A stretch of 64,000 bases of DNA from Callorhinchus milii (Eukaryota). Made by a program: the position numbers and the translations under genes. The stretch covers positions 130,016,001 to 130,080,000 of the forward strand of contig NW_024704742.1 in assembly GCF_018977255.1 (NCBI RefSeq), in the 5' to 3' direction. The notes beneath the pieces were generated by a model. The model worked only from the letters and a program-made list of their open reading frames with translations, was not told the origin of the DNA and did no database searches. This document shows, piece by piece, positions 30,401-36,400 of the stretch (the first letter of the stretch is position 1; each line of letters begins with the position of its first letter).

Positions 30401-33400
30401 AATCGAGATAATAAGACATTACATGTTCACCTGCAGCAACCCGTAAAGTCACAAGCCTGCGCATTCATCAAAAGCACAAACATCCTTACCAGCATCCCCC
30501 ATGGAGCTGAAAATGTTCTCAGTGACTGTCAGGATGGTGTCTGTGGCCTGATCGTAACGTCCTAACGGGTGTCCTCCGGTGGCGTACAGCTTGATGTGCT
30601 GGAGGAGGTCATTGAGGGCCTGTGATACAGTGGTGGCAGCCACTCCAACCTGCTTCAGCAGCTGCTCGTCTTGTGTGGCAGCCTGCGAGGCCTCCACACA
30701 GCCCTCCACTGACTTAGCGACCAGCTTGCCAGCTTCAATCAGCTGCTCCTGACATGCCGGGGAACTAATGGTTGGAGCTACAACCTGCAAGAGTAGAAAT
30801 AGATGCAACTTCCTTACCAGTGCTTTACTTGTACAATCAGATGTCTCTTAGGGGAACCTCATTTTGCTCTGATGGTAGTTAAATCAGAACACAGAATAAA
30901 ATGTTTACATACATATCACATTTATTATATGTGAATTACTTACAATATATTATAAATCGTGTTATCATCATATTTTATATACGGATATTATAATCACAAG
31001 ATTACCCCAAAAAATCTATTACAAGATTAAAATACTATTTTAAGAAAATGCTCATTTTTATAAAGCTTTCCAACCAGAATCCTTTCTGAAAATTTGGCTA
31101 TAGCTAGTCTGCCCAATACAGTTTTTATTTTTTATACTGCATATACATTGGAAAATAAATCTGTGTAAACAAGGGGTCAAATAGGACAGTCTCTTCCTAA
31201 AATACCCCAAAAGGCCATTTGGAACATACTCAAAAGAAATAATTTGTCTGCAAAATACCGCCATGACACTTTAGAGTGAATCCTGTGAAACAATTTGAGG
31301 CATCCTCCTGATGTGAAATTCCCTATATCAAATGCAAGGATTCTTAGTGTTGTGATAACGTATAATGTACTTCAACGATGGATAATTATTTCTGCTACAA
31401 TGATTTGTGCTGCATATAAGGGGTTTGTTTCACTATATAAGGCATAATATTTTCATCAAGGAGTGCGGAAGCTGTCTGTTGCAGTGGTGGATGTTTAGTT
31501 CTGTAAGGTCTGAAGAACCTATCTTGAGGTGGCAGCGGGCAGAGCTTTCTTGTGTCTGAATAAAAGTACCCAGTGCAATCATAGGAGTATAGGAACAGGA
31601 GTAGGCCATTCAGCCCCTCAAGTCTGTTCCATCATTCTATTAGATTATGACTAATCTGTACCTCAACTCCAAATACCGACTGTTGCCCATATCCTTTGAT
31701 ACCCATACCTAACAGAAATCTATCCACCGGAGTCTTGAAAATCTGACTGGATGCAGCATCTACAGCCTTTTGGGGGAGAGAGATCCAGATTTCCACTACG
31801 CTTCCACCAATTTCATTAATACTTTAAAAGTTCACCGCGTGCTCGTGACCAACAAACGAGGTCTTGTAAACGCTTACCTTAGTACAAGCCACGAGCTGCG
31901 AGGTGGAGAGAGCACACTGTGTCGCAGCGGCTATGACACGATTCTGCAAACCCGAATCATCTGCTTTCTGAGCCACATTTTTCGACCTCAGGACCAGTGC
32001 TGCTGCCGCATTTGCCACAGCTTTGGCCAGCTGCATGAGGACCTCCTGGAAATGGTCAGAAAATCGACAAAATTAAGAACGGCAACATTCGACAAACGTG
32101 GGAGAAGAATCAATAGGAATCTACTATTCATCAGCTCAGTAAATTCAAGATTTCCACAAGTTACTCCAGAGAGTTTGTTTGATCCAAAATTCCAGGGCAA
32201 CATAAACCAAGATCATCCATGTTGCTAGATTATATTGGATTACTAGTTATATTATGGACACTGAAAGGCTCTATCTGGCTTGCACGGCATTGTTTAACCT
32301 CATTTCCCAGGTTTATTAACGCTAATGTAAGCTACGTCAGGTCTAGGTGGTAACAGAGATACGGTCAACAATCCCCTATATTTAATAAAATTGGTCATTC
32401 ATTTAGTTTGTGCAGCATTGGAGGGTGCAAACTTGTTGCTACTTTCACCTACAAATACACAATATGCTTCGCAGGAAAACAGTAAAACCTGTGAAGCACT
32501 CCGAGACATTTGGACGGCCTGCATGATGTGGCATTATATTCGGGATGCTAACCCGTGTGAAGGGCGCTATGTAAATGCAAGTTGTTGTTGTTGCATATCA
32601 AATGAAGGGATTTTATTGATATTATTGTAATATAAAACAAATTGGAATAGTTTTGTGTGGTTTCCCTTTGCTAAATATCCATAATTTCATACACTTAAGT
32701 CATTGTTTCCTGACAGCCTATCCAGTCACAGCACTAATTTAAAAATTAGAGCAAAGTTTAAAATAAACCATATCAACCAGATAGTTCCTTTTCAAAGATT
32801 AAACAGTATAATAGTCAAAACAAACTGAGGATTAAACTGAAATGTGTGCATTAAAGAAATTATTGGTGAACACCACTCTGTACTTATCCCAAAGTGCACT
32901 GATCAGGCAAGAAATGGACCCCTGCTGCGGAGCCTTCATATGTAAGCATTCTTGCTGCTGAAACGTCATTCATGAATCTAGTTTCCAGCTTTAGGAATTG
33001 AATGACTTGTTGTTAAGTTCTGGTACTTCGCTGCCCAAAATACCTGGGTCAAAAAGTGCCAATGATCTCTGCATCTAATTTTTTTTTATAAACTGATTCC
33101 CTCCATACTATGAACCAACACAGGTTTCTTGCAATTACAAGACAAACACTAACCAATGCAGCGTGGGATACCTGCAAAGTGGTTTGATTAAAATTTAATC
33201 TGGAGAGAAATGCAATCAGATACATCCACCTCAAATAGTTAGTACATTTTCTAACGAGACTTCAGTTATTATTGCCAATTCTGATTCCATGGCACTTTCA
33301 GATTCGGAGAAAGAGAAAAAAAATCAAATCCCAATTATTCAAAATATATAATAATTTTTAAAAAGCACTGAACGAATTGCATTTACCGGTCTGAGAACAA

Positions 33401-36400
33401 AGCCTGAAACAATCCTTGATGTGTATTTGTGTGCATCTACAGGAAGCTGTACAAAGCATTTACAAAAATCCAACAGAAGGTTAAGACACTTTAAAACGCA
33501 GCTGTAAATGTGCAATTATACTACGACTGAAAAAAAATGTAATTTCCATTAGCGCATACCTGAAATCGTGGATCGGCATCGCTTTCCCCGATCTGCTGCA
33601 GAAGCTCACCACTTGTGTGGCCCACAGTTCCAGCAGCAGTGAGTAGGTGCTGACGAGGCTGAAACACAGACAGGGGCGAGTATGAATGCTTTCTGCATCT
33701 CATTCAATAAACAAATCCTTACTGTCAACTTGTACCAATTATCAGCTTTGACTGATAAATTGGAAGGGGGGAAGAACGTAGTAACACTGGGCACTGCACA
33801 GTAGATGTCGTCTGTTTACTGTGACAAAGATCACCTGCTCTTTCCGTCACTTGCATGCATCTTTAATACGGAACATCGACTGGTGATTCTAGTCGACAAA
33901 TCCTACATAATTTACAAGGTAAATGTGATAAGGAGGACTGTAAATAATTCACTTGCTCAACTTTGCTGCACATTGCCTAAAAACAGACAATGTGCCAGTT
34001 ATACTAGGAACTGACACCGTTGTCCTATAAAACCTTAGCCAGTGCCTTTAACTCTCTGCAACATGCAGTCATGAAAAAGCCATGGCTCATGTCCTCTTAA
34101 GTGTCTTATCTAAAGCAGAGCTTGCAAAACCCAACTTTCCCTCACGTCCCAATCTATTACAAGGGCACCTGCAATTTGCTGTTGATCAGTTGCAATGCAA
34201 CCTTGCGTGCTCCCCCGCTGCATTTAGGTAGATTTTAAAGTGGGTAATGGTTGGAATTTATTGCGCTTTGCATAGGCCAACATATATTTGCCCACAAAAC
34301 ATATAGTCAATTCACTTCACAGAATATTATGTGAAGCGCTTTGAAATGCCTTGAAGACGTGATATGGCGCTATATCAAATGCAGGGATTATTATTATATA
34401 CAGCAACAGTTTGCTGCTTGTATACAGCACTGGCCCACTTGACTCAGTACTTTGATGAATCAAACAGTACAAGTTAACCTCAGCAGTTGCTGGCTGAGCT
34501 GTCTTCAATAACTCTGAAACAGCACAGGCCAGGTTCTTGGCAGCTTTCAGCAGCTGCTGTCCATTCGCGCCCTCGTCTTCCATCAGGGCCGCCAGTAGTT
34601 TGACGCCTTTTGACATTTCCGTCAGGTTTGAGGAGATGGTGGTCACTGCACACCCAACGGCACTGTAATCTGTATCAGCAGGGTTTCCTGTTACATAAAA
34701 CCAGCAGACCAAGATTAATATAATGCAACTCCTAAGCAATAAGTATGAAAATAAAAAGCTTCTCCGCTGCATCCCTAGGAGCTCAGAACCATAAAGGAGA
34801 ACTGTTTCGACACAGGAGTTTTATGCCACAAGCTTAAAATGTACTTGAAAGTTGCTGTCCTTGGAGACAAGAACAGAGTGCTTGTTGTCCCTTCTAAACA
34901 GAATTCAAATTACATATTGCACAGACATAAATGTTCTTGCTTTTATTAACTTAATGAAACATGCTAATTATTATACCCAGGAATAAAACTTAAAAGTTAT
35001 TCATAAATCATCCCAAATCAGCTTTGATTTTCTCTGCTAAAAGCACAACCACATAACCGCTTACTTAACGCTCAAAATTACACCCAATACTTAAGACCAA
35101 TTTGTCTTAAAAATTTAACAAGAATTAGGATTTTAATTGTGTTTATTTTTGCACTGCACCAAATTTAAGAATTTTCCACCAAGATATTAAAAATGTAAAT
35201 AAAATGCAAATTAAATCAAATACTTGACTGCCCAGCAGTTTGGGACGTCCTCCCGATGTGAAAGATGCTATACAAATGGAATTGTTGTTGTTGATGATGT
35301 TGTCGTTGTAAATCAAAATGGTTTTATTGGCTAAGACGAAGGAAATTTCTGCCAATGAGTTCACGAACCTGCGGTGAGATTGACCACTGATGCTGTGCCT
35401 GCAGTAATCGCATCAACCTGGGAATGGATCTCATGTTTGGATTCATCCATTTTCATTTTTTTCCATTCATTTGAGGCCTAGGGGCACAAACATAACATTA
35501 TTGCAATCTCTTCAACAGCAAAGGACACACAATACAATTAATGCAGTACTATTGCTCACCAGTGCTGCAAAACAACCTGTGTAATGGACTCACAAATCAA
35601 GACTACAATATACAGTAGAGCTTTATGAAACTGTTAAAAAGAAATCTATTAAATATGAGTAAAAGTAGCAGCGGTGAAAAGTATGACCACAACAAATGTT
35701 AATTCAATATGCATCCATCAAAACAAACTACTTAAGGAATAATCCTAGAGATTATTGTTCTAGTCAGTTATTTAACTAGACTAATAAGTGGCTTGCTTGG
35801 TTCGGGTGAGAACAATGTAGTGAGTAGATTGTGCATTTGAACTCCACAACAGGACTTTTAATCATAATAGAAATAAACATGACAAGGGAACACTGGATGT
35901 ACTGTCTTGCTGGTGAGATGTTAGCCTGTTGCGATGAACATTAAGATCCAATGGTACTGTTTTAAAAAACAGGACATTTTCTCCTACCAAGTTCAATATT
36001 CCTCTCATTCAAATTCAGGCCCAGTAAACCTTACTCTGGAAGATGAATAATTGATGAGTAAATAACTGGGTTTTTTCTCAGATTTCTTGGCCAGCAATCA
36101 CCCAGATTAAAATTGCTGAATCATTTCAGTGCTGCTTGTGGAATCTTACCGTGTGACCATTGGCTGCCGTGTTTGTCTACAAAAACAAAGTCACTATACT
36201 TTGCAATAAATCCTGTGAAATATTGTGAGAGGTTATGATGATGTGATAAGGTACTATACCAAATGCGGAGTGCGTGTGTATGTGGCAGAAAGCTTGGACA
36301 GTACACAGTTCATTTGAATCTGTGTTAAAGGTTCTGACTTACAGCATCGTGTCCAAGGGGTGGCAAGGCATCAAGATCATCCAGACTGGCTGTTGCTTGC

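What the first reader, a model, noticed from the sequence alone, without database searches (positions are those of the whole stretch)
33154..33403. Candidate in-frame microexon cluster at the R1-R2 junction after Gln665, the site of human TLN1 cassette exon 17b
Seen in sequence: the phase-0 intron after Gln665 has a stretch with no repeat I recognise and several compatible splice signals on the minus strand. (a) An 18-nt symmetric exon, 33154-33171, cactttgcag|GTATCCCACGCTGCATTG|gttagt = VSHAAL, followed by a GU-rich tract. (b) An upstream acceptor ctgattgcatttctctccag (exon edge 33199) with a UGC in the pyrimidine tract, giving 28- or 46-nt versions; alone these hit TAA at codon 4. (c) A 17-nt phase 0-to-2 exon, 33387-33403, gtttcag|GCTTTGTTCTCAGACCG|gtaaat. 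The 17+28 and 17+46 combinations restore frame: [15 protein letters not shown](VSHAAL). Established: human TLN1 has a 51-nt cassette (17b) inserted after Gln665 that alters R1-R2 stability and vinculin binding; UGC near acceptors is typical of SRRM3/4-regulated microexons. Inference: an unannotated splice switch at the same mechanosensitive junction may exist in this lineage, convergent or ancient. The 17-nt exon has a weak pyrimidine tract and may be chance.
Basis: partly seen in the sequence, partly recalled or inferred. Interest (0 to 1): 0.75.

Follow-up and report, generated by a model that had tools for sequence, protein, structure and literature searches.

The report
Ancient optional exon in chimaera talin-1
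This chimaera's talin-1 gene carries a 60-base optional exon, seen spliced in and out of RNA and matching shark and ray versions, at the same spot as a human cancer-linked exon, so this likely force-tuning splice switch probably dates from the first jawed vertebrates, while the tiny exons first proposed have no support.

Summary
Right place, wrong exons. The window is TLN1: 36 exons splice to 1650 aa with 0 mismatches to Callorhinchus milii talin-1. The proposed 18-, 28-, 46- and 17-nt exons show no junction in 5 RNA-like runs and match no homolog. A different exon is real: 60 nt, 33446-33387 (minus), phase 0-0, joined to both neighbours in run X2 beside the skip form, and not seen in the other 4 runs. 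Its peptide [20 protein letters not shown] is 7-10/20 identical to inserts after Q665 in 11 of 20 shark and ray species, ranks first of 48,570 intronic windows, and is absent from 12 of 12 C. milii models fetched. Inserts of 17-22 aa sit at the same junction in ray-finned fishes, amphibians, sauropsids and mammals. One origin in the jawed-vertebrate ancestor is likely, but core similarity to tetrapod inserts is not detectable. Likely function, by analogy with human 17b: a flexible spacer that weakens R1-R2. The scan noted the lizard counterpart earlier (e1-9569259). Not a microexon.

The parts
33560..33658 (-). TLN1 coding exon 16 (human exon 17), residues 633-665, ends at Q665
   Evidence: exact spliced match to P0162; RNA joints
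33447..33559 (-). 113-nt GT-AG intron upstream of the cassette; weak, T-rich acceptor with TGC
   Evidence: joint 33560 to 33446 in run X2, depth 61.3; acceptor score 5.2 against a median of 7.0 for true acceptors
33387..33446 (-). 60-nt phase 0-0 cassette exon, [20 protein letters not shown]; likely counterpart of human exon 17b
   Evidence: both joints in X2; homology to shark and ray inserts
32046..33386 (-). 1341-nt GT-AG intron downstream of the cassette
   Evidence: joint 33387 to 32045 in X2; donor score 7.2 against a median of 7.4
31878..32045 (-). TLN1 coding exon 17 (human exon 18), residues 666-721, start of R2
   Evidence: S-G is kept in the shark inserts
   Evidence: scores and motif counts; no junctions; one unspliced X1 contig ends at 33172

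Best explanation
The intron after Gln665 of chimaera talin-1 holds one 60-base in-frame cassette exon (33446-33387) that is both included and skipped in RNA and is homologous to the 19-20-residue inserts of shark and ray talin-1; it is likely the ortholog of human exon 17b and would add a predicted flexible spacer that likely loosens the R1-R2 force switch. Shown: exon boundaries, frame, inclusion and skipping, homology within cartilaginous fishes, and same-junction inserts in every major jawed-vertebrate group sampled except lungfish and coelacanth. Inferred: sample differences reflect tissue-regulated splicing; a single origin in the jawed-vertebrate ancestor; the insert unwinds the first turn of R2 helix 1, lengthens the R1-R2 linker, lowers unfolding force and raises vinculin binding as measured for human 17b; and length, disorder and the end residues matter more than the core sequence.
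For: RNA: X2 has joints 33560 to 33446 and 33387 to 32045 (GT-AG, depth 61.3) plus the skip joint (27.5); X1, X3, X4, X5 show only the skip form. Run X6 (kind not on record, behaves as DNA) runs unbroken through 32815-33566 with no difference inside the exon. Homology: 7-10/20 identity to 11 shark and ray inserts; z 8.7 and 6.1, 0 of 1000 shuffles; best of 48,570 intronic 20-codon windows, 44.3 against 18.7 for the next. Distribution: of 400 fetched proteins spanning the junction, 287 have no insert and 107 have 17-22 aa, a few of them intron read-through artefacts; real-looking ones occur in gar, eels, herring, caecilians, salamanders, frogs, squamates, crocodilians, birds, echidna, marsupials and placentals including primates. 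Amphibian, sauropsid and mammal inserts are mutually similar (z 3.5-6.5 even with ends trimmed). Of 60 distinct inserts, 52 are net basic and 51 end in K-T, P-T, R-T or N-T. Fold models of Heptranchias R1R2: without insert pTM 0.87 and R2 helix 1 from P662; with insert pTM 0.54, low confidence over 658-683, helix 1 starting late. Human data: unfolding peaks shift from about 15 and 25 pN to 13 and 21 pN (PMC9997659 section 13).
Against: Inclusion is seen in 1 of 5 runs, one contig, tissue unknown. The chimaera peptide has no detectable similarity to mammal (z -1.2), sauropsid (0.6), amphibian (0.5) or ray-finned (0.1) inserts. The shark-ray to tetrapod signal (z 3.0-3.7) falls to z 0.3-0.7 once the first and last two residues are removed, and 21 group pairs were tested. 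No insert in 3 coelacanth models, 1 lungfish model, or 9 of 20 shark and ray species. Most homolog inserts are automatic gene models whose RNA support I could not see. The low confidence of the fold model is partly expected, because only 1 of 14 aligned rows has an insert. The chimaera isoform itself was not folded and nothing mechanical was measured.
Confidence: 0.75

Rival explanations
1. The exon is real and ancestral to cartilaginous fishes, but arose independently of the ray-finned and tetrapod exons; the same intron was exonised two or three times because this junction tolerates or favours an insert.
For: No core sequence similarity between cartilaginous-fish and tetrapod inserts after trimming ends; lengths differ by group (19-20, 19-22, 17-18); no insert in fetched coelacanth and lungfish models.
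Against: Same intron, same phase, similar length, hydrophobic first residue and K-T end shared by sharks and tetrapods. In 9 same-species isoform pairs the only other differences were at residue 2255. Short disordered exons diverge fast: mammal against sauropsid inserts already score low. Missing gene models are weak evidence, as C. milii itself shows.
Confidence: 0.17
2. Besides the 60-nt exon, the downstream signal cluster is also used at low level: as an 18-nt in-frame microexon, as a 28- or 46-nt frame-shifting poison exon, as a recursive AG|GT site at 33172/33171, or as an intronic regulatory element for the cassette.
For: TACTAAC, 2 copies in 50.7 kb of introns, lies about 40 nt upstream of an acceptor in the top 1.8%. 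An unspliced X1 contig ends exactly at 33172. Contigs drop rare and decay-targeted forms.
Against: 0 of 5 runs show a junction. No fetched homolog carries a 6-aa or 25-26-aa insert (0 of 400). The X1 contig has no loose end, and other intronic contigs of that run end at arbitrary places.
Confidence: 0.15
3. One reading: a microexon cluster (18-nt, or 17+28, 17+46) under SRRM3/4 control is the splice switch.
For: The splice signals and reading frames exist; frame-restoring pairs occur only in this intron, 1 of 36.
Against: The 17-nt piece is part of the 60-nt exon in another frame; no junctions in 5 runs; peptides match no shark or ray insert (the one marginal score, 17+46 against sauropsids, 34 of 1000 shuffles, is 1 of 24 tests).
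Confidence: 0.03
4. The exon is real and old, but it acts through a short binding or modification motif rather than as a mechanical spacer.
For: Within cartilaginous fishes P-V/I, K-Y and R are kept between chimaera and sharks or rays; inserts are basic and rich in Ser, Thr and Pro. The human paper leaves this possibility open.
Against: No core motif is shared between groups, so any motif would be lineage-specific.
Confidence: 0.2

Closest known systems
Human TLN1 exon 17b (Gallego-Paez et al. 2023, PMC9997659; outline, passages and sections 7, 9, 13, 15 read; figures and supplements not seen)
   Same: Same gene, same intron, in-frame insert directly after Gln665, both included and skipped, predicted to lengthen the R1-R2 linker.
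   Different: 60 nt and 20 aa against 51 nt and 17 aa; no detectable peptide similarity to the mammalian inserts fetched (primate models stood in, the human peptide itself was not retrieved); regulation and mechanics untested here. The passages read take conservation only as far as mammals.
RefSeq-type 'talin-1 isoform X1' models of sharks and rays (for example XP_078077806.1 Mustelus, XP_067841052.1 Heptranchias, XP_059845520.1 Hypanus)
   Same: Clearly homologous 19-20-aa insert at Q665 (7-10/20 identity).
   Different: Automatic models in elasmobranchs only; none of 12 C. milii models fetched has it, so this adds the holocephalan branch.
Neural microexons regulated by SRRM3/4, RBFOX or PTBP1 (Li et al. 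2015, PMC4317164, passages; the SRRM/UGC link is recalled)
   Same: Symmetric, alternative, weak acceptor with a UGC.
   Different: 60 nt exceeds the 51-nt limit; no TGCATG in this intron; human 17b is highest in skin and pancreas, not a neural pattern.

Membership tests
TLN1 exon 17b cassette | Lies in TLN1, not TLN2 | tested here: met
   0 mismatches over 1650 aa to C. milii talin-1 P0162
TLN1 exon 17b cassette | In-frame insert directly after Gln665 | tested here: met
   phase 0-0, 60 nt, no stop; upstream exon ends at residue 665
TLN1 exon 17b cassette | Alternatively spliced, both forms expressed | tested here: met
   inclusion and skip joints in X2; skip only in X1, X3, X4, X5
TLN1 exon 17b cassette | Sequence homology to the mammalian 17-aa peptide | tested here: inconclusive
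   no direct similarity (z -1.2); indirect link via sharks and amphibians or sauropsids rests on terminal residues only
TLN1 exon 17b cassette | 51-nt, 17-aa length | tested here: not met
   60 nt, 20 aa; length ranges 17-22 aa across groups
TLN1 exon 17b cassette | Lowers R1/R2 unfolding force, raises vinculin binding | not testable with these tools
   only fold models of a shark homolog, consistent with a loosened linker
TLN1 exon 17b cassette | Control by TGF-beta/SMAD3/PCBP1; high in skin and pancreas | not testable with these tools
   tissues of the runs are not given
Chondrichthyan TLN1 Q665 cassette | Homology to shark and ray inserts above chance | tested here: met
   0 of 1000 shuffles; rank 1 of 48,570 windows
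SRRM3/4-type microexon | Length at most 51 nt (27 nt in the stricter usage, recalled) | tested here: not met
   the supported exon is 60 nt; shorter candidates lack junctions
SRRM3/4-type microexon | UGC in the acceptor tract above background | tested here: inconclusive
   present at 33446 and 33199, but also at 880 of 3228 intronic AGs and 12 of 36 true acceptors
SRRM3/4-type microexon | Neural-enriched, SRRM-dependent inclusion | not testable with these tools
   no tissue labels, no perturbation data

The most novel reading that the evidence does not exclude
Exon 17b, described as a human cancer-associated exon, is a splice-controlled force dial on talin R1-R2 present since the last common ancestor of jawed vertebrates. 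Its position, phase, size and end residues are kept while the core is rewritten in each lineage, so it works as a sequence-tolerant spacer, and chimaera, shark, teleost, amphibian and mammal inserts form a ready natural series for testing spacer against motif.
Probability: 0.55. Interest if true: 0.62.

Novelty: new member of a known kind. Interest (0 to 1): 0.5.

Why it matters
Talin-1 was long taken as a single isoform, and the human exon was framed through cancer, with conservation stated only for mammals in the passages read. A homologous-position exon in a chimaera, shared with sharks and rays, puts the switch at or near the origin of jawed vertebrates and argues for a normal physiological role. 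It also bears on the question that paper leaves open, whether the insert is a ligand motif or only destabilises R1-R2: core sequences are not shared across groups, which favours the spacer reading and supplies natural variants to test it. Tempering this, databases already model the exon in sharks and tetrapods; what is new is the holocephalan copy and the depth of the comparison.

Tried and rejected
Run search listed no holder on record as RNA; spliced joints showed X1-X5 behave as RNA. X4 depth in bin 33172-33338 vanished on the narrower lay: rejected as a repeat-type placement. Contig depths 61.3 and 27.5 were not turned into an inclusion percentage, since the tool says contig depth cannot give levels. 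A direct protein search with the cassette frame was not run after one search failed on a parameter; exon and homolog queries answered the question. The first search reached only proteins up to 2000 aa and showed no genuine insert. No whole genome is held, so the TLN2 intron and orthologous shark introns could not be read; conservation of splice sites and flanks is untested at DNA level. TLN2: 9 named fish TLN2 models have no insert and the Tln2 splicing paper's passages name other exons (PMC2702505): too thin to conclude. Inserts starting with V and similar intron read-throughs were dropped from the 60 distinct inserts, and only 60 of the insert-bearing models were grouped. Splice scores come from a matrix built on only 36 sites. 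Literature: 8 searches found the 2023 paper, its preprint (listing only) and one carcinoma paper (PMC13534237, passages), and none on non-mammalian 17b; subscription journals, figures, supplements and splicing databases were not seen and may hold it. An ESRP link was looked for and not found.
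Full report
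Setting. The window holds the 5' two thirds of a talin gene on the minus strand. A spliced mapping gave 36 complete coding exons that translate to 1650 residues with 0 mismatches to the C. milii talin-1 record P0162. The gene is therefore TLN1 of a chimaera. Coding exon 16 (33658-33560) ends at residue 665, and the 1514-nt intron 33559-32046 is phase 0. This is the junction where the 51-nt human exon 17b inserts 17 residues (PMC9997659, passages).

Every motif and translation quoted is present. With a matrix trained on this gene's 36 introns, the acceptors score 4.2 (33403), 7.5 (33199) and 7.0 (33171), the donors 7.2 (33387), 6.2 (33172) and 4.4 (33154), against medians of 7.0 and 7.4 for true sites. 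At the weakest of these scores, 12 in-frame pseudo-exons of 6-51 nt occur in 10 of 36 introns, and TGC precedes 880 of 3228 intronic AGs. The downstream cluster is still better than most: only 2 pseudo-microexons in 50.7 kb score as well as the 18-nt one, itself included.

RNA. Five RNA-like runs were laid (X1-X4; X1, X4, X5 again or newly). All five carry the direct joint from 33560 to 32045. Run X2 shows instead a 119-nt contig that joins 33560 to 33446 and 33387 to 32045, both GT-AG, at depth 61.3 beside the skip contig at 27.5. That defines a 60-nt phase 0-0 exon, [20 protein letters not shown]. Run X6 runs unspliced through the region with no difference inside the exon.

Homology in cartilaginous fishes. 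Of 20 shark and ray species whose talin-1 models were fetched, 11 have a 19-20-residue insert after Q665 (only 15 of the 29 members of the main shark cluster were listed). The chimaera peptide is 7-10/20 identical to them, beats 1000 of 1000 shuffles, and ranks first among 48,570 intronic 20-codon windows of this gene, 44.3 against 18.7. None of the 12 C. milii models fetched contains the peptide. The exon therefore predates the split of chimaeras from sharks and rays (about 400 million years or more; date recalled).

Beyond cartilaginous fishes. Among 400 fetched proteins spanning the junction, 287 have no insert and 107 have 17-22 residues, a few being intron read-through artefacts. Real-looking inserts occur in gar, eels and herring (19-22 aa), caecilians, salamanders and frogs (17-18), squamates, crocodilians and birds (17), and echidna, marsupials and placentals (17). 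None was seen in 3 coelacanth models or 1 lungfish model. Tetrapod groups are mutually similar even with ends trimmed (z 3.5-6.5). The shark-ray to amphibian and sauropsid signal (z 3.0 and 3.7) depends on the first and last residues and falls to 0.3 and 0.7 without them, and the chimaera peptide alone resembles no non-chondrichthyan group. One origin is thus supported by position, phase, size, ends and parsimony, not by core sequence. I put it at about 0.8 against repeated gain.

Mechanism. Fold models of Heptranchias R1R2 gave, without the insert, pTM 0.87 and R2 helix 1 starting at P662; with the 20-residue insert, pTM 0.54, low confidence over residues 658-683 and a late start of that helix. 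This matches the paper's model of human 17b, but the alignment is nearly empty across the insert, so part of the drop is expected anyway. In human talin the insert lowers the R2 and R1 unfolding peaks from about 15 and 25 pN to 13 and 21 pN and raises vinculin binding. By inference, regulated inclusion of the chimaera exon would do the same. The lack of a shared core motif favours a spacer over a conserved ligand site, a choice the paper leaves open; lineage-specific motifs remain possible, since P-V, K-Y and R are kept from chimaera to sharks.

What remains unexplained. A TACTAAC (2 copies in 50.7 kb of introns) lies about 40 nt upstream of the strong 33199 acceptor, followed by AG|GT at 33172/33171, and one unspliced X1 contig ends exactly at 33172 without a loose end. 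A rare poison exon, recursive site or regulatory element cannot be excluded; I give it 0.15.

Novelty. Eight literature searches found no paper on the exon outside mammals; the 2023 paper's main text has no occurrence of 'conserv', 'vertebrate' or 'zebrafish' and reports constraint in mammals. Figures, supplements, subscription journals and splicing databases were not seen. Automatic database models already contain the exon in sharks and tetrapods, and an unchecked note of this scan described the lizard copy and traced it to bony fishes (e1-9569259, read after my analysis). This finding adds an RNA-supported holocephalan copy that the fetched models lack, and moves the likely origin to the base of jawed vertebrates. 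Verdict: new member of a known kind, interest 0.5.

Noticed in passing
window 33244-33154, minus strand: Perfect TACTAAC about 40 nt upstream of a strong acceptor (33199), then AG|GT at 33172/33171; an unspliced X1 contig ends exactly at 33172. Possible poison exon, recursive site or QKI-type element (motif reading recalled); no junction seen.
   Followed up: partly
proteins P0269, P0283, P0163, P0303, P0310 at residue 2254-2255 (outside the window): A single proline insert distinguishes isoforms in catshark, skate, gar, alligator and herring; coelacanth P0301 has 13 residues there. Possibly the 3-nt TLN1 microexon mentioned by Li et al. 2015; position not checked. The scan has a note on it (e1-9988585).
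   Followed up: no
window 34478-34370 (intron after coding exon 15): Three C. milii UniRef models (P0289, P0290, P0294) read through into this intron and omit coding exon 16, while RNA joints support the normal splice: likely mis-modelled.
   Followed up: partly
window 26207-26206: The intron after coding exon 23 starts with GC (AAG|gcaagt), a GC-AG intron.
   Followed up: no
window about 31325-31346, 31590-31800, 32557-32594, 34324-34400, 35240-35283: Short intronic stretches attract hundreds to thousands of contigs with loose ends in all runs: interspersed repeats.
   Followed up: no
skates (Amblyraja, Rhinoraja, Leucoraja), Mobula, Pristis, Narcine; coelacanth; lungfish: Fetched talin-1 models lack the Q665 insert: annotation gaps or true losses.
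   Followed up: no
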